A stretch of DNA of 64,000 nucleotides, from positions 64,001 to 128,000 of the IMG/VR virus record IMGVR_UViG_3300007171_000004. One strand, 5' to 3'. Source of the stretch: a virus. Taxonomy: Duplodnaviria; Caudoviricetes. Positions within the stretch are counted from its first letter, which is position 1. Every line of letters begins with the position of its first letter. Positions 3,550 to 60,499 of this stretch are shown here, piece by piece. The notes below the pieces were generated by a model that was given only the letters and a program-made list of their open reading frames with translations, was not told the origin of the DNA and searched no databases. The translations under genes and the position numbers were made by a program.

Positions 3550-4500
3550 ATGGATAGCTTCGACCCTAATAAAATTATTGACTTTTCTAAAAATTATTAT
3601 GAGATTTTAGGAATTAATTCTGAGGATCTACCTAATGGGAAAAATAGAGCTGCTAAAGTTGAATGTAGTAATATTTTAGACAAAGCATTTAGAAATAAAG
3701 CTAGAACTTGTCATCCTGATTTTGGTGGGACTAAGGAAGCTTTTTTAGATATTGTTAGAGCCAGAAGAATTTTAGAAGATCCCTATTTACGAGATATTTA
3801 TGATGGCAAAGAACAAAAGCCAGAATTTTCAAACAATAGCGAATTTACTGTAGACTGGTCAAAAATTGGTAACTATAGAAAAGGCACACCAGAAGATACA
3901 GTAGGTTTTAGTTTATTCTTTGAAATTGTAGAAATCAAAGAAAATCTTAATATTGTTCCAGCTTTTATTCCTAAGTCTGCGGATCACAATTATGAATGGG
4001 ATTTTGCATTAGCTGAACAAAAGGTCAAACTTTCCCTATCTATTGTTAACGATGAGGATGAAGTATTAAGATTAACAGATTCATCAAAAATGGAAGAATC
4101 TTTACCATTTAAAATTTATATCTGTATTCCAAGAGCTAGTTTATCAATCTCTCGCAATGATGGATCTATTCAGGCAGCTTACAATGACTTCAATCTTTTA
4201 GAAACTACTTCTTTAAATGTTGCCAAAGAATATATTAGTTGTGGATTAAGTAAAGATTTAGAGCTTTTTAGGTCAGGCGAATTACAAGCTAAAAAAAGAG
4301 AAGAAGATAAGAAAAATAATCAAAGTAATTGGATAAGTGGAGATAAAATGAAAACTATCGACAAAAGCCAGCTTGATTATATCTTAAAATTAAAATCTTT
4401 CAATGTTACACCAGACGAAAATGCTGCTGATTTCTTGGAAAAATTACCCACAGAATCAAGGAACACATCACAAGAAGACACTCCTGAACTGCCATTTTGA
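3550..4500 (+). CDS. J-domain (DnaJ class C) protein with unknown C-terminal domain
   Basis: NYYEILGI...AFRNKARTCHPDFGGTKEAFLDIVRARRILEDP...RDIYD is a J-domain with intact HPD. No G/F region or zinc finger. Confidence 0.85.
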   Translation: MDSFDPNKIIDFSKNYYEILGINSEDLPNGKNRAAKVECSNILDKAFRNKARTCHPDFGGTKEAFLDIVRARRILEDPYLRDIYDGKEQKPEFSNNSEFTVDWSKIGNYRKGTPEDTVGFSLFFEIVEIKENLNIVPAFIPKSADHNYEWDFALAEQKVKLSLSIVNDEDEVLRLTDSSKMEESLPFKIYICIPRASLSISRNDGSIQAAYNDFNLLETTSLNVAKEYISCGLSKDLELFRSGELQAKKREEDKKNNQSNWISGDKMKTIDKSQLDYILKLKSFNVTPDENAADFLEKLPTESRNTSQEDTPELPF

Positions 4501-50901: not shown

Positions 50902-51921
50902 ATGCCTCTTAATAATAACCTTTACGGTGTATATAAGACCCTCAGAATTGGTGGGACTTCGTACATCGTTGAAAATGCATCTAGAAATAGATCGATGGAA
51001 GTTAGCCCTAAGAGCTACGTCCAAGGAACTCCTCTTTCGGCTATCTTGGACATTGGTGGCGTAACAGAAGACATTTCGATCCAAGCTCCAATTCTTGTCG
51101 GTGGTGCTTCTGCTCATGACGGTAGATCGCTTGCTAATACAAAGATTACTGAAATTCTTTCTCCTTCGACAGCTACATTGCCATTGCTTCAAAATGCAAA
51201 CTTTAGAGTTTCTGAGGGTGGAGCTTCGGTTTCCATGTCTCTTATGTCTGATGGTTCGGCTGCATCTTCGCTTGCTGGTTACTTCCAGTTAGTCAATAGC
51301 CCAATTCCTGCTTTGAGCCCAGTTTCTGCTGGTGGTCCTACAAGAGTTGCAAGATTCTACGACTTCCGTGTAAACATCGGTGGTAGAACATTCTTCGTTA
51401 TTGAAGCGAACATTGAAGTCAAGTCCCAAGTTGACAAGAAGTACTTCCTCGTTCCTAATGCTACATCGACCAACATTATGGATGAAACCGGACAAGGTGA
51501 GCTTGTTACCATTCCTAATACAGGTGGTACACAATACTCCTTCGGTAACCAATTCCCATTTATTGGTATCACTGGTGTAGAAATCTCCGGTGGTGGTAAG
51601 GCTGCTGTTCTTTTACAAGACCTTAACTCTGACGGTGACTTCACTGACTATACCGCAGGTACAACTGATGAATCTATCAACCTTACCTACGGTATCAACG
51701 AGCCATCTTCTGGAGACCTTACACTTCAAATCCCTGGTGGAGCTGTTTATGAATCAGTTGCGTTCTCCTTTGAGATCTACAACCCATCAACTGATGCATG
51801 GGTCAGCCTTCTCCCATCACTCAACCTTACAAGATCGGTTATCAACAAGTCTAACTTCGAGATTACCAACGGTCTTCTTACTGTAGACTTCGGATTCACC
51901 TGCTGGGTTACCACAGCTTAG
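50902..51921 (+). CDS. Putative major tail-tube-like protein B (339 aa), high-expression codon bias
   Basis: Paralog of the preceding gene; AGGTGG SD; strong preference for AAC/TAC/TTC/ATC/GAC/GGT codons, unlike its neighbours. Confidence 0.55.
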   Translation: MPLNNNLYGVYKTLRIGGTSYIVENASRNRSMEVSPKSYVQGTPLSAILDIGGVTEDISIQAPILVGGASAHDGRSLANTKITEILSPSTATLPLLQNANFRVSEGGASVSMSLMSDGSAASSLAGYFQLVNSPIPALSPVSAGGPTRVARFYDFRVNIGGRTFFVIEANIEVKSQVDKKYFLVPNATSTNIMDETGQGELVTIPNTGGTQYSFGNQFPFIGITGVEISGGGKAAVLLQDLNSDGDFTDYTAGTTDESINLTYGINEPSSGDLTLQIPGGAVYESVAFSFEIYNPSTDAWVSLLPSLNLTRSVINKSNFEITNGLLTVDFGFTCWVTTA

Positions 51922-52331
51922 TGATTTTTGCATAATTTACAAGATTCGCATAAACTTTTGTTTATCTTATATGAGTAAATTATCAAAATAGATCCTATAA
52001 CTAGTAACAAATTAAACACTAGGTTGCTCTTATTTATATGTTCATGTAATGTATGGATAAGAGCAACCATTCCAAACCCAACATAAAAATACAGAGATGC
52101 TTTGATTGATTTATGCCTTTTATATCCAAAGCACATAGTTAACAATCCTGAAATTCCTGATAACAACAATAAAATTAATTCAAGATTTTCATCTGCAAAC
52201 ATACTAATTCCCAATAAAGGCAAAAAGGTCATTAATATTGGCATCAATGTGCAGTGAATTGCACAAATAAAGGATGCAGAATATCCAAGCTTTTCAAATA
52301 AATTTATAAGAATACGATTTCCTGTGAACAT
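51918..52331 (-). CDS. MerC-family membrane protein (137 aa)
   Basis: LGYSASFICAIHCTLMPIL matches the MerC-domain ASxxCAIHCxxxP motif. Four hydrophobic segments, GYKRHK loop, Cys/His-rich tail CESCKLCKNH. Confidence 0.78.
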   Translation of the reverse strand: MFTGNRILINLFEKLGYSASFICAIHCTLMPILMTFLPLLGISMFADENLELILLLLSGISGLLTMCFGYKRHKSIKASLYFYVGFGMVALIHTLHEHINKSNLVFNLLLVIGSILIIYSYKINKSLCESCKLCKNH

Positions 52332-52893
52332 CTGTTAATCCATTTTCTATAATAGCTTGAATATGATCTTTAGTTAAATATCCCTTGTTTGATAAAAATT
52401 TGTAATTGGGATATTGTTCATCCAAATCTTTCATTAAGCGACACTGAATAACTTTAGCTACTATGCTTGCACATGCTACCACAAAACTAGTCGAATCGGC
52501 TTTAGGTAGCATGTGCATATTTTTTAAACTTATATCAGAAGCTTGATCTAAGATAAATAAATCTACTTTATGATATTTTAATACCTCTAAAGCAGATTCT
52601 TCTATAATATCTTTATTTGCCCGATTTATTCCATGTTTATCGATGAAATATTGATCACGAGTAGAAACATGAATCTTTATAGCCTTTTTTAAAATTTGCT
52701 CATATAATTCATCTCTTTTTTTCTCTGATAGTTTTTTAGAATCATTAACACCAGGGATAAAAACAGTAGAATCCATCAATACACATGCTGCAACAATACT
52801 ACCTGCACAAGATCCTCTACCACATTCATCTATACCAGCAATATATTCTCCATGAACGCTTCTTAAATCATCATCATAGTTTTTGAGTGACAT
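52294..52893 (-). CDS. rnhB: Ribonuclease HII
   Basis: AGIDECGRGSCAG, VNDSKKLSEKKR, KADS.S..VACASIVAKV, NKGY.T..H. Start placed at ATG 52893. Confidence 0.92.
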   Translation of the reverse strand: MSLKNYDDDLRSVHGEYIAGIDECGRGSCAGSIVAACVLMDSTVFIPGVNDSKKLSEKKRDELYEQILKKAIKIHVSTRDQYFIDKHGINRANKDIIEESALEVLKYHKVDLFILDQASDISLKNMHMLPKADSTSFVVACASIVAKVIQCRLMKDLDEQYPNYKFLSNKGYLTKDHIQAIIENGLTDVHRKSYSYKFI

Positions 52894-54607
52894 GCTCTTT
52901 TGCCTTTTTGTAAACAATTTGACTATATTCTTTTATATCATCATTTGTAGATTCTAGCAAGCCGGTCAACATTTCAATATTATTAGACTCGCTAGATTCT
53001 TGAAGAGATTTTTTCATATCAGTTAAATCTTCTACTATATGTCGTGGCAATACATCTGTTCTCAACAATTCCTCAATCTGAATAATCCTGTCTGTCAATT
53101 GAGATTTAATGTTAGAAATTTCCAAGAATAATTTATCATCATTTTTATTATTTTCAGCTTCTTGGATTAGCTTTTGAATTTGGTCGCTTGTCAAAGATGA
53201 TGAACCTTCAAGAGTAAGATATTTTGAAATTCCAGAATCCTCATCTTTTGCCATAACTGAAAGAATACCATTAGAATCAATTTCAAATGTAACTTCGATT
53301 TTTGGCACACCTCTAGAAGCTTTTTTAATACCATCTAATGTAATCTTTCCCAATAAATGATTAAAAACTGCCTGTGGTCTTTCGCCTTGATAAATTGAGA
53401 CATCTACTTTTTCCTGATTATCAAAAGCTGTAGTAAATGTTTCTGTTACTTCTGCTGGAATTGATGAGTTTCTTTTAATCATAACATTCATCAAACCACC
53501 CTGAGTTTCAATTCCAAGAGATAAGGGAGTGACATCTACAAGAAAAATCACCTTATCACTATTTCCAGACAAAATATTTGCTTGAATAGCTGCTCCGATT
53601 GCCACAGCCTCATCTGGGTTAATAGACTTGTTAGGATTCTTGTTTGTCCATGCTTTTACAGATTCAGATATATATGGAACTCTAGTTGACCCACCTACAA
53701 AAACTACTTCATCAATATCATGAAACTTAAGACCAGCATCAAAAAGTGCTTGATCTACACATTTTTTAGTTTTATCAATTAAACTTTGAATTTTACCTTG
53801 AAACTCTTCCCTATTAATTGTTACTTTTAAATTAATTGGTTTGCCATCGATAAATTCATAATAAGGTATAGATACATTAGTTTCTGTTTTGAATGATAGT
53901 TCTTTTTTAGCTTTTTCTGCTGCATTTCTTAATCTAGGATCATTACTTTGATTAACACCATGTTTTTCTACAATTAGATCTACTAAACATTTATCAAAGT
54001 CATCGCCACCTAATTCTGTGTCACCTGAGGTACTTAAAACATGAAAATCCATTCCTTCAGCGATTTTAAGTACAGTAACATCAAAAGTTCCTCCGCCTAA
54101 ATCGTATACAAGAATAGTTTGATTAAGATTCTTATCTAAACCATAAGCAAGAGAAGCAGCTGTAGGTTCATTTATGATTCTGGAAACTCTAAGACCAGCT
54201 AATTCTGCAGCAACTTTAGTGGCTTTTCTTTGGTCATTATTAAAATATGCAGGAACGGTTATAACAGCAGAATCGATAGTGTCACCAATAAATGTTTCTG
54301 CATCTTTTTTAAGTTTTGATAAAATAAATGAGGAGATTTGCTCCGGTGAATATTCTTTATTATTTAGGACATATGTAAAATTTTTGCCCATATTTCTTTT
54401 AACAGATCTTATAGTTTCAGCTGGATTTTCATTTTCATTATCAACTGCAGAAAGACCAACTAAAATTTCTTGCCCGGCAAATGACACAACAGATGGAGTA
54501 GTGCGAAATCCTTCTTCATTTGTTAAAACTTGTGGATTACCGTTATTATCAATATAAGCTACTACAGAATTAGTTGTTCCTAAATCAATTCCTACTGTTA
54601 CTGGCAT
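52874..54607 (-). CDS. dnaK: Hsp70 chaperone DnaK (577 aa)
   Basis: GIDLGTTNS, AVITVPAYFNNDQR, INEPTAASLAYG, VYDLGGGTFDV, FVGGSTRVP, DVTPLSLG, GVPKIEVTFEIDSNGIL. GAGG SD. Confidence 0.97.
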   Translation of the reverse strand: MPVTVGIDLGTTNSVVAYIDNNGNPQVLTNEEGFRTTPSVVSFAGQEILVGLSAVDNENENPAETIRSVKRNMGKNFTYVLNNKEYSPEQISSFILSKLKKDAETFIGDTIDSAVITVPAYFNNDQRKATKVAAELAGLRVSRIINEPTAASLAYGLDKNLNQTILVYDLGGGTFDVTVLKIAEGMDFHVLSTSGDTELGGDDFDKCLVDLIVEKHGVNQSNDPRLRNAAEKAKKELSFKTETNVSIPYYEFIDGKPINLKVTINREEFQGKIQSLIDKTKKCVDQALFDAGLKFHDIDEVVFVGGSTRVPYISESVKAWTNKNPNKSINPDEAVAIGAAIQANILSGNSDKVIFLVDVTPLSLGIETQGGLMNVMIKRNSSIPAEVTETFTTAFDNQEKVDVSIYQGERPQAVFNHLLGKITLDGIKKASRGVPKIEVTFEIDSNGILSVMAKDEDSGISKYLTLEGSSSLTSDQIQKLIQEAENNKNDDKLFLEISNIKSQLTDRIIQIEELLRTDVLPRHIVEDLTDMKKSLQESSESNNIEMLTGLLESTNDDIKEYSQIVYKKAKEHVTQKL

Positions 54608-54633
54608 ATTAAACCTCTTTTAATATATTGTAC

Positions 54634-54649
54634 AGGATATTATATCTTA
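54634..54649 (-). promoter_or_regulatory. 16-bp near-palindromic element containing TATAAT upstream of dnaK (copy 1)
   Basis: Minus strand TAAGATATAATATCCT, identical to 56682..56697. Confidence 0.7.
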
Positions 54650-54653
54650 GATT

Positions 54654-54662
54654 TGGTACAAT
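54654..54662 (+). promoter_or_regulatory. Extended -10 promoter candidate (TGgTACAAT), divergent from dnaK
   Basis: TGn plus TACAAT about 70 nt upstream of the 54732 small ORF. Confidence 0.45.
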
Positions 54663-54731
54663 AGATGAGGGTAATCACTGTAGATTCTCACTCCATATTG
54701 TTGTGGATATTAACATATAAAGGAGAAGGAT

Positions 54732-54803
54732 ATGAGAATCTTTAAAGACATGGAAAAAATGTTCGGTGAAGTGATTGATATGTTGTTTAAATTAGAGTTG
54801 TAA
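54732..54803 (+). CDS. Unannotated small ORF, 23 aa: MRIFKDMEKMFGEVIDMLFKLEL
   Basis: Strong AAGGAG/AAGGA SD immediately upstream, candidate promoter, and a terminator 4 nt after the stop. Confidence 0.6.
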   Translation: MRIFKDMEKMFGEVIDMLFKLEL

Positions 54804-54807
54804 ATAC

Positions 54808-54837
54808 AAAAAGGAGCTTAACTTTAAGCTCCTTTTT
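54808..54837. terminator. Bidirectional intrinsic terminator between the small ORF and the helicase
   Basis: AAAAAGGAGCTTA-ACTT-TAAGCTCCTTTTT, a perfect 13-bp inverted repeat. Confidence 0.88.
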
Positions 54838-54838
54838 C

Positions 54839-56680
54839 TTATTCAGCCTTTATGGGATAATATTGCCATGCTCTTTCATTCCTATAAACTCTTGCTCTTA
54901 AATTTGAATGAGTTTTAAGGTTTTTATGATTAACTTTAAAATCAACAATAATAGCATTAGGTTTTCCATTTTCAGCAGATTGTTTAGCATCCATACCTAC
55001 ACATCTCAAAACTCTTCCAACTTGCTGATACGTAGTGATTGGAGAACTGCTACTTCCTGCTAATATAAGAGCTGTAATTTTGGGAGCATCAACACCAACA
55101 TTTGCCCATTGAGTTGCTATAAGAATAATTTCATTGTTTTCAACTTTATTTAGCATCCTTCGGCGATAATTTTTCTCTTCATCTGATGGATCTAATTCCC
55201 CCTTATCCCCTCCTGGCACAAAAACTGCATTTTCAATAATCTCTTCTAAAAGATTACCATGCTCCATTCTTTCTACTAAAATAAGGGTCGGAGTACCATT
55301 ATCTTTAAATGTCTCAGCAAATTGTTTAATTCTATAGTTTCTTTCAGTGTTTTTGATTATATTAAGTTCATAAGCTTCTTGATATGTTTGAGCTTCGTGA
55401 TGTTCTTTAATTTCACATTGGAAGATTTTAGGTGGTACTAGAAAACCTCTTTCCACTAAATCACTTGCAGAAACTTCAATAATTTTTTGACCTAACGTAC
55501 CTTCAATTCGAATTTCTTGATTGTCAGTACGATAGGGAGTAGCTGAAAGTCCTCCACGAATAGTTGCATTTACAGCATATTTACCAATCTCTTCTATAAT
55601 AACAGATGCTATATGTGCCTCGTCAACAATATAAGCCTGACATGCAGTAACTAAATCTCTAATTTTGTTTTTATCTTCTGAAGTTGCCATTCTGTTTTGA
55701 TATACAGAATCTGCCTTTTTGAAGTTGTTATTTTGAAGTTTTATTAATGAGTCATATTTTCTCGAATATTCTTTAAGCTTTAGATCTAAATCTTTTTGAG
55801 CTTTATTTAATATTCTTTGATTTTTAGTATCCAAATTATCCTGAAATAAATTAGTTAGTTCTTCAAATTTAGCTTGTAATGAATCAATTTCTAACTGAAG
55901 ACTTTTAAGTTGGTTTTTAGCACTTCTCTTAGCAATAGAAAGATCTTTAAGTGCTTTCTCATATTCTTCTTCGATTTGAGCATTTGATTTCCTAACACCA
56001 TCTGAAGGAGCTATGTCAACAACCTTGTATTGACTTTCAACATACTTCTTATCATATGCGCCTAAAACTGTTTGATAAGTTACTACGTTTATGCCTTCCA
56101 TGTTTAAATCACAAATGCTATCACCTGCGATTCCAACTTTTACTGGTTTTCCATCTAACCTTAAGTACTTTTCAAATTCTTTTTTAGTTTGTTTGAGAAG
56201 TTCAAGAGCTGGAACTACAAAAATAACTGGAGCAACTTTAAGCTTTGAAAAAATATAACAAGAAGTCATAGTTTTACCAGCACCAGTAGCTAATGAAAGT
56301 ATGCCACCATTTTGCTTATAAAACTCATCTCCTGCTTTGATTTGATAATCTCTTAATGTCTTTGGACCAAAATCACAAGTAAATGGGTAATTTCGTTGAA
56401 TATCGGGCCTTTTATCGACCGTTTCAAATTCAACATTAAGATTCTGCAATAGATTCTTGACTTTTGGATATAAACCTATTGGAAATGTGCCGAATTTCTT
56501 GTTGTAAAGTGATATTTTGCCATCCCATTGTCCAAGTTTATATTTTGGACTCCAATCGGCATTTGGTTGTATATAAGATAATTCATCTCTTATTACAGAA
56601 TGTAGGCTATATAAAACATGAGGGTCAGATAGATTAAAGTCTATCTGACACCTTTCATTAAATAAGTTTATTACTATCAC
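54839..56680 (-). CDS. Superfamily 2 DNA helicase, UvsW-like, with a long coiled-coil insertion (613 aa, GTG start)
   Basis: N-terminal YKLGQWDGKISLY, LRDYQ, ATGAGKT, TYQT, VDEAH, GLSATP, LVERMEHG, ATQWANVGVDAP, QQVGRVLR. Confidence 0.85.
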   Translation of the reverse strand: MIVINLFNERCQIDFNLSDPHVLYSLHSVIRDELSYIQPNADWSPKYKLGQWDGKISLYNKKFGTFPIGLYPKVKNLLQNLNVEFETVDKRPDIQRNYPFTCDFGPKTLRDYQIKAGDEFYKQNGGILSLATGAGKTMTSCYIFSKLKVAPVIFVVPALELLKQTKKEFEKYLRLDGKPVKVGIAGDSICDLNMEGINVVTYQTVLGAYDKKYVESQYKVVDIAPSDGVRKSNAQIEEEYEKALKDLSIAKRSAKNQLKSLQLEIDSLQAKFEELTNLFQDNLDTKNQRILNKAQKDLDLKLKEYSRKYDSLIKLQNNNFKKADSVYQNRMATSEDKNKIRDLVTACQAYIVDEAHIASVIIEEIGKYAVNATIRGGLSATPYRTDNQEIRIEGTLGQKIIEVSASDLVERGFLVPPKIFQCEIKEHHEAQTYQEAYELNIIKNTERNYRIKQFAETFKDNGTPTLILVERMEHGNLLEEIIENAVFVPGGDKGELDPSDEEKNYRRRMLNKVENNEIILIATQWANVGVDAPKITALILAGSSSSPITTYQQVGRVLRCVGMDAKQSAENGKPNAIIVDFKVNHKNLKTHSNLRARVYRNERAWQYYPIKAE

Positions 56681-56681
56681 G

Positions 56682-56697
56682 AGGATATTATATCTTA
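56682..56697 (-). promoter_or_regulatory. 16-bp near-palindromic element containing TATAAT upstream of the helicase (copy 2)
   Basis: Identical to 54634..54649. TATAAT lies 6 nt before the GTG start, and there is no SD. Confidence 0.7.
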
Positions 56698-56704
56698 TAG
56701 TTCT

Positions 56705-57148
56705 TTATGCTGCAAATTTCATAATTCCAATTTGAACATCTCTACTAGATTTATTCTCAATCATTCCAAGAGTTGTGACAATCAAATCTTTAACAATTTC
56801 ATATTCAGAATCAGAGAGTTCAATATTATTCTTGCTTGCTACAATCTTAATAAATCTAAGAAATGAATCAGCTTTATCATTTTCATCAAAAGTGCCGTCA
56901 ACACAAGATTTTAAACCCTCTGCCCAAGCATCAATAATAATAACTGCTTTTGGCCCTAATTGAGCCGCTAATACACTTTTGACAATTAATAGAGCTTTAT
57001 AAACAAAATCACTTTCTCTTGTAAATCTTCTTGCAATGTGAGGAGCCAAAATAATTACCAGAGCTGTGCAAATTAATAAAGTTAAATGTTCTTGAACCGC
57101 ATGTAGTAATAGTTGCTTAATTTTTAAAGCAGTGAATAGTTGAGACAT
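56705..57148 (-). CDS. Membrane-anchored hypothetical protein (147 aa), possibly holin-like
   Basis: One clear N-terminal hydrophobic helix (LTLLICTALVIILAP) followed by helical soluble region. The holin idea is weak inference. Confidence 0.55.
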   Translation of the reverse strand: MSQLFTALKIKQLLLHAVQEHLTLLICTALVIILAPHIARRFTRESDFVYKALLIVKSVLAAQLGPKAVIIIDAWAEGLKSCVDGTFDENDKADSFLRFIKIVASKNNIELSDSEYEIVKDLIVTTLGMIENKSSRDVQIGIMKFAA

Positions 57149-57149
57149 T

Positions 57150-57365
57150 CTAGCAATCCTTAGCGATTACATCATCTCCTGTATCGGATGCTTCTGGGTC
57201 AAGAAATACATCAGCAACGACAGGAATTTCCAAAACATCCTTTACTACAATAGATTGAGCTTCAGGCGCATCGGTGGTCTCTTCAACTTCCGACGCTTGT
57301 ACTTCTTCACCTTCTACATCTGTAAACTGTTCAATTCTTCCGGTAGCACGTTTAATCATAGACAT
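57150..57365 (-). CDS. Small acidic hypothetical protein (71 aa)
   Basis: AGGAG SD; very Asp/Glu-rich. Confidence 0.7.
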   Translation of the reverse strand: MSMIKRATGRIEQFTDVEGEEVQASEVEETTDAPEAQSIVVKDVLEIPVVADVFLDPEASDTGDDVIAKDC

Positions 57366-57376
57366 TGTTTTTTCTC

Positions 57377-58378
57377 CTATTTTAAAGTAGACACATAATT
57401 TTGCAAGATATCTTTTTGTTCTTGAGACAGATTCTTAGGTGTTTTATACACTACATTAATTACGAAATCTGTTCTTGCGTTCTCATTCTTAAATAAGCCC
57501 TTTTGAGATAAATTAAACTTTTGACCATTAGTAGTATATTCTTTCATTTTAATTGTAGTTTTACCGCCTTCAGGCAAATCAACTTCAACATCTTTACCTA
57601 ATATTGCTACTACTGGATCAATTTCAAAATCAAGTTTTACATTACCATTTCTATCAAATTCAAAATGTCCAACATCTGTAAGTTCAAAATCTATAATTAC
57701 TGGTCCAGGATCAATTGTTCTATTCTCTTGATTACCCTTACCTTTAATAAATTGAGAATTGAAAATCGATCCTTTTTTAACTTCTATTTCAATTGTTTCT
57801 GAAACTAATTTTAAGCCAGAAGAATTACAATCAGAACAATTTGATGTATATCTAGAACCTTTGCCTTGACAAGAACCGCAAGGAGTAATGAATTGCTGTG
57901 TAAACATACCTTGGCGGATTTGCTTAACTACATTTCCTGCACCATTGCATTCTTTACAAGTAATTTTTTCTCCTAAACCACCATTGCCATTACACTTCAC
58001 GCAAAAAACATTTCTATTAAATGTGACATTTTTTTTGAAATTTTTGAAAGATTCTGCTAATGTAATGTTAACTCTAATAGAAACTGGAGAATTTTCCATC
58101 CTATTCTGTCTCTGATGCCCGAAGGGATTAAAGTCAAAATCAAATCCAAATGGCATTCCTCCTCCAAAAGGACTACCATGCTGCTCTGCTTCATACCTAG
58201 CTTTTTTCTGAGGATCTGTCAAAATAGAATAAGCCTCACCTATTTGCTTGAATTTATCTTCAGCATCGGGAGACTTATTAACATCTGGATGATATTCTCT
58301 AGCTAATTTACGATAAGCTGATTTAATTTCATCAGCTGTAGCATTTTCATTTAAACCAAGAACTTCATATGGATTCAT
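57377..58378 (-). CDS. dnaJ: DnaJ (class A) co-chaperone (333 aa)
   Basis: J-domain with YHPD, short G/F region, four zinc motifs (CVKCNGNG, CKECNGAG, CGSCQGKG, CSDCNSSG) and C-terminal domains. Confidence 0.95.
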   Translation of the reverse strand: MNPYEVLGLNENATADEIKSAYRKLAREYHPDVNKSPDAEDKFKQIGEAYSILTDPQKKARYEAEQHGSPFGGGMPFGFDFDFNPFGHQRQNRMENSPVSIRVNITLAESFKNFKKNVTFNRNVFCVKCNGNGGLGEKITCKECNGAGNVVKQIRQGMFTQQFITPCGSCQGKGSRYTSNCSDCNSSGLKLVSETIEIEVKKGSIFNSQFIKGKGNQENRTIDPGPVIIDFELTDVGHFEFDRNGNVKLDFEIDPVVAILGKDVEVDLPEGGKTTIKMKEYTTNGQKFNLSQKGLFKNENARTDFVINVVYKTPKNLSQEQKDILQNYVSTLK

Positions 58379-58386
58379 GTATGTTA

Positions 58387-59064
58387 TTATACATTAATTT
58401 TTTGCAGCAAAGATTTAATTTTATTGGATGGGCATACTGAATTTTCACCAATAGCAATATCTGCATGTTCGCCTGTAACACCAATAACTAAGCCGTAAAC
58501 CAATCCATCTGTACCAATAACCATACCACCAGAGATACCTTGCAAAATATCAGCATCAATAAAAATTAAATCTGACCAAGCTGGAGAATCTGCATTTCGA
58601 ACCGTTTGATGAATATTAGAAATTCTACCAACAGTTGCAGTATCATGCCATCCCTCTGGCGATCCAATAGCTGCAATAATATCTCCTACTTCAGCAGTGT
58701 CAGAATCTGCTAAACTGACTGCTGTGACAGAATCTGGAATATCTTCGCAATAAAGAATCGCTACGTCTAGATTTGGCTGGGAATCAATTACTCTTGCTCC
58801 AAATGAATTTTTACCATCAAAACTAACTTGCAACCCCATGTAATTATTAATAAGTTTAGGAGGAGCAACGTGTGATGCTGTAGCAATTAACCCATTGCCA
58901 ATATGAAATCCACTACCAGTCCATTGCTCTTTACCATCTTTAACAAAAATTGTACATGATGCTGCAATTGCATTTTGGATGACAATCTTAATTGGATCAT
59001 CAACTTTATTTTGAGCTTCTCTTAAGAACATCTCAACCATATTTGCATCTAAACGTAGCGACAT
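58387..59064 (-). CDS. Trypsin-like serine protease (S1C/HtrA-like catalytic domain, no PDZ, no signal peptide)
   Basis: GSGF, triad His in ATASHV, Asp in LDVAIL, Ser in QGISGG; GDIIAAIGSP; IGRIS. Confidence 0.88.
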   Translation of the reverse strand: MSLRLDANMVEMFLREAQNKVDDPIKIVIQNAIAASCTIFVKDGKEQWTGSGFHIGNGLIATASHVAPPKLINNYMGLQVSFDGKNSFGARVIDSQPNLDVAILYCEDIPDSVTAVSLADSDTAEVGDIIAAIGSPEGWHDTATVGRISNIHQTVRNADSPAWSDLIFIDADILQGISGGMVIGTDGLVYGLVIGVTGEHADIAIGENSVCPSNKIKSLLQKINV

Positions 59065-59068
59065 AAAT

Positions 59069-59533
59069 TTAATACCCTAGAATTTTATACTCAATCTCAT
59101 CAAATGTCAAAGTGCCAAATCTTCTTGAATCATCAGAATGAAATGTGTTATCACCCAAAACATAATAATGATTTTTTGGAACTCTTGTAATTGTCAATAA
59201 AGAACCATAGACTTTTTTAAACTCTAATAATTCTTTTGTGTCGTAGCCTTCAAGTAAAATAGCGTTTGTATTTTCTAAGTCAAGCAAAGAAGCATAACTA
59301 TCTCCACCTACATACTTGACTCTTTTTATAATCGCATCTTCACCCTCTAGATTACAAACAACAATATCATTTTTCTTGATATCTTTAGTTTTATAACCAA
59401 TTAATATTTGACCATGATGAAGAGTGGGATACATCGAATTGCCTCTTACAACAATTACTCTGAATGGCCTGTAGTATATTAATAACAAACAAGCCAAACT
59501 CAATACCGTAGTCAAAATAAATTTAAGCTTCAT
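59069..59533 (-). CDS. lepB: Signal peptidase I (S26)
   Basis: N-terminal TM helix; catalytic Ser in GNSMYPTL; catalytic Lys in IIKRV; YYVLGDN...SDDSRRFG box. Confidence 0.92.
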   Translation of the reverse strand: MKLKFILTTVLSLACLLLIYYRPFRVIVVRGNSMYPTLHHGQILIGYKTKDIKKNDIVVCNLEGEDAIIKRVKYVGGDSYASLLDLENTNAILLEGYDTKELLEFKKVYGSLLTITRVPKNHYYVLGDNTFHSDDSRRFGTLTFDEIEYKILGY

Positions 59534-59584
59534 AGTCCTCTCCTTTTATGCGTGTAGAGAAGGACATTTTTGTTTTTTAAGCCC

Positions 59585-60499
59585 TTAATTAAATTTCATA
59601 TTAGCGTATTTAGGGACACCAAATCCCCAATCACCAGTTCTTCCAACTGTGATGTTTTGAGATTCTAATGAAGAAATATCATCTAATCTCTGAAGCATAT
59701 CCTTATAATCACAAATAGGCTTCAAGTTTGGATTTTTTCTTGTCCATGCTAACATCAACGCACAGACTCCAGCAATAAATGGACAAGCTTGTGATGTGCC
59801 ATTTAATTTAGCATATCCATTGTCCTTATAAGTTGAATAAATATCTACTCCAGGAGCAATCGCATCCACTTCTGGACCATGACTTGAAAAATGCGCCATG
59901 TTCCCTCTAGCATCTAAAGCAGCAACTGCAATCACTTCTTCAAATCTAGCTGGATAATTTACAGCTCCAGCGTCATTGCCAGCAGCAGCAATCATAATTA
60001 CCCCAGCATCTGCAGCTCTCTTAATAGCAGTATAGAGTTCTGGAGGAGCAGAAGATGCACCCAAAGACATGCTGATAATATCCACATTGCAATCTACAGC
60101 AGCATTAATTCCAGCAATAATATTATCATAAGATCCATTACCACCATTACCCAAAACCTTGACTGGAAGAATTTTTGCTTTAGGAGCTACACCAACAACG
60201 CCAAAATCATTATTAGCTGCTGCAATGATTCCAGCACAGTGAGTTCCGTGGCCATTCCAGTCCTTATCATCTGATTCACCTGAAAAATTTAAAGCTGGCA
60301 ATAGATTATCTCTTAAATCGGAGTGGTTCCATACACCAGTGTCGAGAACAGCAATTGTAATACCATCGCCCTCAGTATAAGCCCAAGCACCAGGAATATT
60401 GGATTGCATCAAGCCCCAGTCTGTAGTTTGACTGAGAGTTTGCATCACATGAATCGGTTGCATCTCAATATCTGGAATAAACTGAATTTCTTTATCCAT
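59585..60499 (-). CDS. Subtilisin-family (S8) serine protease, no signal peptide (304 aa)
   Basis: Asp in AVLDTG, His in GHGTHCAG, oxyanion Asn in AAAGND, Ser in NGTSQACP. GGAG SD. Confidence 0.95.
   Translation of the reverse strand: MDKEIQFIPDIEMQPIHVMQTLSQTTDWGLMQSNIPGAWAYTEGDGITIAVLDTGVWNHSDLRDNLLPALNFSGESDDKDWNGHGTHCAGIIAAANNDFGVVGVAPKAKILPVKVLGNGGNGSYDNIIAGINAAVDCNVDIISMSLGASSAPPELYTAIKRAADAGVIMIAAAGNDAGAVNYPARFEEVIAVAALDARGNMAHFSSHGPEVDAIAPGVDIYSTYKDNGYAKLNGTSQACPFIAGVCALMLAWTRKNPNLKPICDYKDMLQRLDDISSLESQNITVGRTGDWGFGVPKYANMKFN

What the first reader, a model, noticed from the sequence alone, without database searches (positions are those of the whole stretch)
53891..54457. DnaK has lost both nucleotide-cleft salt bridges: predicted GrpE-independent Hsp70
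Seen: GLSAVDNENENP (54457-54422) aligns to E. coli GQPAKRQAVTNP, giving K55V and R56D. RLRNAAEKAK (about 53905-53935) aligns to RLKEAAEKAK, giving E264N. Catalytic K70, E171 and T199 equivalents and the long subdomain IIB loop are intact. Established: the K55-E267 and R56-E264 bridges slow ADP release in DnaK, and HscA, which lacks them, needs no GrpE. No grpE is in this window although two J-proteins are. Inference: a self-exchanging viral Hsp70 independent of the host exchange factor.
Basis: partly seen in the sequence, partly recalled or inferred. Interest (0 to 1): 0.7.

Follow-up and report, generated by a model that had tools for sequence, protein, structure and literature searches.

The report
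Phage Hsp70 without DnaK's cleft latches
A huge aquatic phage carries a divergent Hsp70 chaperone in which the residues that hold ADP in bacterial DnaK are replaced, in every relative found, so it probably recycles nucleotide without the exchange factor GrpE; this is untested, and the same phage also keeps a fully canonical DnaK.

Summary
The 577-aa Hsp70 at 52874-54607(-) has K55V, R56D and E264N (E. coli numbering). E267 and the catalytic residues are kept. The V59-L257 hydrophobic patch is also gone (N, S).

This is not a one-off loss. All 121 members of this protein's family have a hydrophobic residue at 55 and D/E at 56. They form one clade, and in all four genomic contexts read they sit in the same huge-phage module: proteases, class A DnaJ, UvsW-like helicase, Hsp70, RNase HII, MerC. 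Of these members, 55 have also deleted 10 residues of the IIB hairpin, as HscA has. Changes at canonically conserved positions are enriched on the published GrpE-contact surface (17/28 vs 60/214, p=9e-4).

No grpE was found in the 300.5-kb record, which is estimated 84% complete.

It keeps both bridges and the GrpE hairpin, as do all 120 of its phage homologues.

GrpE-independent fast exchange is the best reading (about 0.55), by analogy with HscA and HscC. The strict conservation of D56 and E58 leaves a re-wired latch or a new partner surface open.

This scan noted the same gene module in another genome, but not these residue changes.

The parts
52874..54607 (-). Divergent Hsp70 ('K1', 577 aa, P0001): NBD, linker VIFLVD, SBD-beta and a short helical lid
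54422..54457 (-). Subdomain IB loop GLSAVDNENENP (E. coli 51-62): K55V, R56D, A58E, V59N. Net charge is reversed. In DnaK this loop is part of the GrpE contact surface
53906..53935 (-). Subdomain IIB helix RLRNAAEKAK (E. coli 261-270): E264N, E267 kept, K263R. I271K follows directly
53801..53896 (-). Subdomain IIB beta-hairpin (E. coli 276-302). It is full length here but the GrpE-signature sequence has changed (DGKPIN). 55/121 relatives lack 10 residues of it
57377..58378 (-). Class A DnaJ (333 aa; HPD, four CxxCxGxG, DnaJ_C), the likely cognate J-protein. It is syntenic with K1 in relatives
3550..4500 (+). Second J-domain protein (316 aa, HPD present)
54839..56680 (-). UvsW-like helicase, a conserved neighbour between dnaJ and K1
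52294..52917 (-). RNase HII, overlapping the K1 stop. It is a conserved downstream neighbour
51918..52331 (-). MerC-family membrane protein, a conserved downstream neighbour

Best explanation
K1 is the founding example, in this window, of a phage-specific Hsp70 subfamily. The subfamily is a core gene of a clade of about 300-380-kb aquatic huge phages. It descends from a DnaK-type ancestor and has replaced all three elements that latch the nucleotide cleft of DnaK: the K55-E267 bridge, the R56-E264 bridge and the V59-L257 patch. By analogy with HscA and HscC, it is inferred to release ADP quickly on its own and to cycle with its co-encoded class A DnaJ without GrpE. It would serve as a specialised chaperone, probably for the giant virion proteins and proteases encoded beside it. 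The co-resident canonical DnaK (K2) would remain a GrpE-type machine. Shown here: the substitutions, their conservation, the synteny, the absence of grpE in the record, and the contrast with K2. Inferred: fast exchange, no GrpE binding, and the identity of the clients.
For: The substitutions are established. Position 55 is hydrophobic and 56 is D/E in 121/121 relatives. Position 59 is almost never hydrophobic in them (2/121; Ala in 25), although L257 itself is kept in 51/121. The family forms one clade, sister to KR-type Hsp70s. Of the relatives, 55/121 have an HscA-like 10-residue hairpin deletion. Published roles of the bridges, the hairpin and the 49-61 GrpE contact come from PMC8215388 and PMC10825016. 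Canonically conserved NBD positions are changed at 17/28 GrpE-interface sites versus 60/214 elsewhere, Fisher p=9e-4. No GrpE was found with Pfam at E<=10, nor with a profile of 50 Bacillota GrpEs (best E 0.34), nor in three fragmentary relatives. K2 and 120/120 of its homologues keep KR/EE and a GPKH or GPLH hairpin, in phage contexts. The catalytic, linker and J-binding residues (R167, N170, T173) are kept. The DnaJ...Hsp70 module is conserved in all four contexts read. E. coli HscC also has V at position 55.
Against: There is no kinetic or binding measurement. P0001 itself keeps the long IIB hairpin. D56 and E58 are each conserved in 117/121 members, together with R263 (112/121), K268 and K271 (120/121). 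This would also fit charge-swapped cleft contacts, so the latch may be rebuilt rather than lost. The record is about 84% complete, and the relatives that could be searched whole are 7-29% complete, so a phage grpE is not excluded. The host and its GrpE are unknown. The interface-enrichment test used a Bacillota-biased reference set, and surface loops vary more readily in any case.
Confidence: 0.55

Rival explanations
1. The latch is re-wired, not lost. The acidic IB loop (D56, E58) pairs with basic IIB residues (R263, K268, K271), so the cleft still closes tightly. K1 then still needs an exchange factor, either a host GrpE adapted to this surface or an unrecognised phage protein.
For: D56 and E58 are each conserved in 117/121 members, R263 in 112/121 and K271 in 120/121, while canonical DnaK has K263 and I271. 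P0001 keeps a full-length hairpin. Two small conserved ORFs of unknown function (71 and 147 aa) lie between dnaJ and the helicase.
Against: Position 264 is E or D in 24/121 members, which would repel D56. Nearly half the clade has deleted the hairpin that active GrpE must contact. No GrpE homologue was found. The 147-aa ORF looks membrane-anchored by eye, and neither small ORF matches any family. The geometry could not be checked because no coordinates were available.
Confidence: 0.22
2. The conserved acidic IB loop is a docking surface for a different partner. K1 might act on the co-encoded canonical DnaK as Hsp110 acts on Hsp70, or it might recruit a phage client or co-factor. The changes would then reflect neofunctionalisation rather than tuning of nucleotide exchange.
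For: Two Hsp70s are conserved in one phage clade with no GrpE in the record. The new residues are under strong purifying selection. The substrate arch residue M404 is Q in P0001.
Against: K1 has none of the Hsp110 hallmarks: no SBD insertion and no C-terminal extension at 577 aa. It keeps a normal linker, SBD and J-binding residues and sits next to a class A DnaJ, as an ordinary foldase would.
Confidence: 0.1
3. The drift is neutral. K1 is an ordinary DnaK whose surface drifted in a fast-evolving phage, with no consequence for exchange, and it uses host GrpE normally.
For: P0001 just reaches one NCBIfam DnaK cut-off (649.7 vs 648). Other divergent Hsp70 representatives also vary at positions 55 and 56.
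Against: The changes are fixed across a clade whose members are only 52-60% identical overall. They hit exactly the three latch elements and the GrpE contact. The sister gene K2 in the same genome keeps all of these elements.
Confidence: 0.08

Closest known systems
HscA (Hsc66), Fe-S cluster Hsp70 of proteobacteria
   Same: HscA lacks both cleft salt bridges. It has a 10-residue shorter IIB hairpin, which 55/121 K1 relatives share. It works with one dedicated J-protein and no GrpE (PMC8215388).
   Different: K1 is 37% identical to E. coli HscA, against 44-48% to DnaKs. It scores below the HscA cut-offs and has no N-terminal extension. P0001 keeps the long hairpin. The context is phage morphogenesis and replication genes, not isc.
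HscC (YbeW) with DjlB/DjlC
   Same: HscC has V at position 55 and no basic residue at 56 (PAVS vs PAVD). It lacks residues 76-101, is short (556 aa) and is predicted to be GrpE-independent.
   Different: Identity is only 34%. K1 lacks the HscC insertion in SBD-beta loop L1,2. K1 pairs with a class A DnaJ rather than a DjlC-type J-protein.
Canonical GrpE-dependent DnaK (e.g. G. kaustophilus 2V7Y; the phage's own K2)
   Same: This is the best sequence match (E 3.5e-150). The domain plan, catalytic residues, linker and J-binding residues are the same, and P0001 has the same hairpin length.
   Different: Both bridges and the hydrophobic patch are absent. The GrpE contact loop is charge-reversed and the GrpE signature is altered. 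K1 scores below the TIGR02350 cut-off.
DnaK/DnaJ genes reported in large aquatic 'moraphages' and in huge phages (Lak, LR7565xx)
   Same: These are phage-encoded Hsp70 and J-proteins in large genomes from aquatic or gut metagenomes (PMC12619734).
   Different: Those DnaKs are described as recent host-derived copies from Flavobacteriales. In addition, 76/79 viral-contig DnaKs that I checked are canonical KR/EE. The moraphage paper never mentions GrpE, and none of the papers listed by three literature searches looked relevant to phage Hsp70 cleft residues.

Membership tests
Hsp70 superfamily (PF00012) | Actin-fold NBD with catalytic D8/K70/E171/D194/T199, a hydrophobic linker, SBD-beta and a helical lid | tested here: met
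   PF00012 scores 592 bits. All catalytic residues are present. The linker and SBD align without gaps.
DnaK-type (GrpE-dependent) Hsp70 | Curated DnaK equivalog score | tested here: inconclusive
   NF001413 gives 649.7 against a cut-off of 648. TIGR02350 gives 618 against 822.55. The relative P0088 is below both. K2 passes both.
DnaK-type (GrpE-dependent) Hsp70 | Cleft salt bridges K55-E267 and R56-E264 | tested here: not met
   The residues are V55, D56 and N264, with E267 kept. The same holds in 121/121 relatives.
DnaK-type (GrpE-dependent) Hsp70 | Hydrophobic patch V59-L257 | tested here: not met
   The residues are N59 and S257.
DnaK-type (GrpE-dependent) Hsp70 | Long IIB beta-hairpin with the GrpE signature (residues 290-295) | tested here: inconclusive
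   The length is kept in P0001 but the sequence is DGKPIN instead of A(T/D)GPKH. The hairpin is 10 residues shorter in 55/121 relatives.
DnaK-type (GrpE-dependent) Hsp70 | A GrpE partner is available | tested here: not met
   No GrpE is found in the 300.5-kb record. A host GrpE cannot be assessed because the host is unknown.
HscA | HscA equivalog score, N-terminal extension of about 17 residues, isc/hscB context | tested here: not met
   TIGR01991 gives 506.7 against 708.55. There is no N-terminal extension. The neighbours are helicase, RNase HII and DnaJ. The rest of the genome was not searched for hscB.
HscC | Insertion of 4-8 residues in SBD-beta loop L1,2 and a DjlC-type J partner | tested here: not met
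   There is no insertion at the E. coli HscC NRQG position. The neighbouring J-protein is class A DnaJ.
NEF-independent Hsp70 (functional class) | Intrinsic ADP off-rate orders of magnitude above DnaK, with no stimulation by GrpE | not testable with these tools
   This needs stopped-flow kinetics.

The most novel reading that the evidence does not exclude
The huge-phage clade runs a self-contained two-Hsp70 system with no GrpE. In this reading the cleft-open K1, with its conserved acidic IB loop, serves as the nucleotide-exchange partner of the co-encoded canonical DnaK (K2). That would be a prokaryotic-virus analogue of the eukaryotic Hsp110-Hsp70 pair.
Probability: 0.04. Interest if true: 0.8.

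Novelty: new variant of a known kind. Interest (0 to 1): 0.45.

Why it matters
HscA and HscC are so far the only prokaryotic Hsp70 types thought to work without an exchange factor. Here a third lineage reaches the same cleft design from a DnaK-type ancestor, and part of it also reaches the same hairpin deletion. This lineage is confined to huge phages, where it sits next to a dedicated DnaJ and the giant virion genes. Its canonical sister gene in the same genome acts as a natural control. If kinetics confirm fast exchange, the pair would be a clean natural experiment on why generalist Hsp70s need exchange factors and specialist ones do not. It would also show that large phages bring a chaperone that cannot be throttled through host GrpE.

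Tried and rejected
1. Complex prediction of the K2 NBD with full-length K1, to test the Hsp110-like idea, gave 'no answer' (score 0.00). This is evidence neither for nor against.

2. My first home-made GrpE profile hit K2 at E=3e-7. This was an artefact: six truncated DnaK N-termini had contaminated the seed set. The cleaned profile found nothing.

3. Whole-record GrpE searches in relatives were possible only for three IMG/VR fragments that are 7-29% complete. The 100-380-kb ENA, JGI and NCBI contigs are not held, so absence of grpE across the clade is not established.

4. The scan of genome contigs with K2 gave only 60-69% matches to Bacillota DnaKs. This is ordinary cross-phylum similarity and does not identify a host.

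5. Laying metatranscriptome contigs mostly caught a 50-nt conserved Hsp70 motif from other organisms. A few short contigs that match K1 and dnaJ with about 2-5% differences over their length (53383-53605, 54341-54484, 57735-57857, 58190-58365) are at best a weak hint of transcription, because DNA carry-over is not excluded.

6. The Jug gut-phage paper was checked as a possible identity for the clade. It does not mention chaperones, and this phage is aquatic.

7. I did not fold the structure, because the tool returns no coordinates and the salt-bridge geometry could not have been measured.

8. I considered the conserved 117-118-aa gene upstream of Hsp70 in relatives as a possible co-factor. It is absent from this window, where only 231 bp separate the helicase and K1.

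Full report
**What is there**

The window is positions 64001-128000 of a 300,536-bp IMG/VR virus record, linear and estimated 84% complete by CheckV. The ORF at 52874..54607 on the minus strand encodes a 577-aa Hsp70, here called K1 (P0001). It matches PF00012 at 592 bits. Its best solved relatives are Gram-positive-type DnaKs: G. kaustophilus 2V7Y at E 3.5e-150 and M. tuberculosis DnaK. Like these, K1 lacks E. coli residues of about 76-99.

**Check of the observation**

GLSAVDNENENP is residues 51-62, which corresponds to window 54457-54422. RLRNAAEKAK is residues 225-234, window 53935-53906.

I aligned K1 to E. coli DnaK taken from NC_000913.3.
- The substitutions are K55V, R56D and E264N, with E267 kept.
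- D8, K70, R71, E171, D194 and T199 are kept.
- The HMMER alignments to solved DnaKs show the same register: "glsavdnenenp" against "gevakrqaitnp".
- The IIB hairpin has the E. coli length.

These remove the hydrophobic patch, which I recall (from memory of Brehmer et al. 2001, not re-read here) as a third cleft-closing element. In addition, the hairpin's GrpE-signature sequence has changed, from ATGPKH to DGKPIN.

**The literature premise holds**

Mayer's 2021 review (PMC8215388) makes these points:
- K55-E267 and R56-E264 bridge the DnaK cleft.
- HscA lacks them and releases ADP about 700-fold faster.
- HscA and HscC lack the GrpE signature (residues 290-295) and are thought not to use GrpE.

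Rossi et al. (PMC10825016) add that the functional GrpE interface comprises DnaK residues 28-33, 49-61 and the 276-302 hairpin. They also report that GrpE-using Hsp70s keep a long hairpin, whereas Hsc70-type and HscA-type Hsp70s have hairpins 4 or 10 residues shorter.

It follows that the loop carrying K55 and R56 is itself a GrpE contact. In K1 its charge is reversed (D56, E58, E60).

**Not a one-off**

The 120 best homologues are 52-98% identical and 563-593 aa long.
- All have V/M/L/I/C at position 55 and D/E at position 56. E267 is kept in 120/121.
- D56 and E58 are each present in 117/121.
- Position 264 varies: N 58, A 17, E 14, D 10, and others.
- Fifty-five of the 121 carry a 10-residue deletion of the hairpin (288-297), the same size as in HscA.

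In a FastTree phylogeny with 102 other Hsp70s the family is one clade, with SH-like support of 93-97. Its sister group has KR/KK-type residues, and most of the short-hairpin members sampled fall in one nested group.

Other viral DnaKs are different. Of 79 Hsp70s on IMG/VR contigs, 76 are canonical (K/R-R, E/D-E, long hairpin). The three exceptions belong to this family.

I also looked at NBD positions that are at least 80% conserved in 79 canonical DnaKs. The family has replaced 17 of 28 such positions on the GrpE interface, against 60 of 214 elsewhere (odds ratio 4.0, Fisher p=9e-4).

**Genomic setting**

Three distant relatives (53-58% identical), on contigs of 97-380 kb, show the same gene order:
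- a giant ORF of about 2900 aa
- S8 peptidase
- S26 signal peptidase
- trypsin-like protease
- class A DnaJ
- two small ORFs
- UvsW-like helicase
- (a 117-118-aa gene)
- Hsp70
- RNase HII (absent in one relative)
- MerC
- further on, gyrase A and B in two of the three

The window has the same order, except that the 117-118-aa gene is absent.

K1 is therefore a vertically inherited core gene of a huge-phage clade. The gene sequence is held by runs from 11 studies, mostly estuary, reservoir, freshwater and aquaculture metagenomes.

The neighbouring DnaJ (57377-58378) has an HPD motif, four CxxCxGxG repeats and the C-terminal domains. K1 keeps the J-binding residues R167, N170 and T173 and the linker.

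The genome encodes a second Hsp70, K2 (P0329, 605 aa, genome position 254471-256288, minus strand).
- K2 is fully canonical: AKRQAV, RLKEAAEKAK, hairpin ITADADGPKHLD. It passes both DnaK equivalog cut-offs.
- Its 120 closest homologues (76-99% identical, apart from one longer protein at 62%) all have K55, R56, E264, E267 and a long GPKH or GPLH hairpin.
- The two whose contexts I read lie among phage-type genes (thioredoxin, protein kinase, DUF5856, ORFs of about 1080-1100 aa), with no grpE or dnaJ beside them. The homologues overall lie on contigs of up to 446 kb.

The huge phages carrying K2's homologues, probably the same clade, thus keep a canonical DnaK under tight constraint alongside the cleft-altered Hsp70. 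This internal contrast is the strongest argument that K1's changes are functional rather than drift.

**GrpE**

No GrpE was found anywhere:
- Pfam GrpE finds nothing at E<=10 in the record, while the controls are positive.
- A profile I built from 50 grpE genes upstream of Bacillota dnaK finds nothing; the best hit has E 0.34.
- Three fragmentary relatives also lack it.
- No Hsp20 or Cpn60 is present.

The genome has three J-domain genes.

**Interpretation**

The best reading (about 0.55) is a phage-specific, specialised Hsp70 that exchanges nucleotide on its own and works with its own DnaJ. This would be convergent with HscA and HscC; E. coli HscC even shares V55.

Fast exchange and loss of GrpE binding are both inferences.

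The main rival (about 0.22) is a rebuilt latch. The acidic IB loop and the basic residues R263, K268 and K271 on the facing helix are all strongly conserved and could form charge-swapped contacts. I could not test the geometry.

A partner-surface reading (about 0.1) includes K1 acting on K2 as Hsp110 acts on Hsp70. It is not excluded, and the one complex prediction gave no answer.

Neutral drift is unlikely (about 0.08).

**Novelty**

Phage DnaK and DnaJ genes have been reported, for example in moraphages (PMC12619734) and in huge phages. Exchange-factor-independent Hsp70s are also known. That paper never mentions GrpE, and three literature searches listed no paper that looked relevant to a conserved phage Hsp70 lineage with HscA/HscC-like cleft features, or to the paired canonical plus divergent arrangement.

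I class this as a new variant of a known kind, of moderate interest, pending kinetics.

Noticed in passing
G000:C1:254471-256288 (-), outside the window (L001:1405-3222): A second, canonical DnaK (605 aa) has both salt bridges and the GrpE hairpin. It has no adjacent grpE or dnaJ, and an HNH-like 168-aa ORF lies just downstream. Its homologues at 76-99% identity lie on contigs up to 446 kb, and the two contexts read are phage-like.
   Followed up: yes
Relatives P0031, P0088, P0111 and others (e.g. L010:10001-11692): About 45% of the K1 family (the 563-565-aa members) have deleted 10 residues of the IIB hairpin, as HscA has. Most also have S11 and F13 in the phosphate-1 loop (DLGSTF), the latter resembling eukaryotic Hsp70 Y15. 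Nearly all members of the family have K at position 271, where eukaryotic Hsp70 has R272.
   Followed up: partly
window 53504-53551 region (K1 SBD): The substrate-arch residue M404 of DnaK is Q in K1 and several relatives, while A429 is kept. This hints at altered client specificity.
   Followed up: no
window 58387-60499 (-): Three different serine proteases lie in a row (trypsin-like, S26 signal peptidase, S8 subtilase). They sit directly upstream of dnaJ and downstream of giant virion-like ORFs, and are conserved in relatives.
   Followed up: partly
window 56705-57365 (-): Two small conserved ORFs lie between dnaJ and the helicase: a very acidic 71-aa protein and a 147-aa protein with a hydrophobic N-terminus. 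Neither has a Pfam match, and their function is unknown.
   Followed up: partly
window 54608-54838: Relatives carry a 117-118-aa gene directly upstream of Hsp70; another scan note calls it a Zn-finger. Here only a 231-bp spacer is present.
   Followed up: no
G000:C1:273815-274330 (+): A third, minimal J-domain protein (about 170 aa, HPD present) lies about 17.5 kb from K2.
   Followed up: partly
window 52800-58400: Near-identical DNA is held by runs of 11 studies, mostly estuary, reservoir, freshwater and aquaculture metagenomes. A few short metatranscriptome contigs match K1 and dnaJ with about 2-5% differences, which is a weak hint of transcription.
   Followed up: partly
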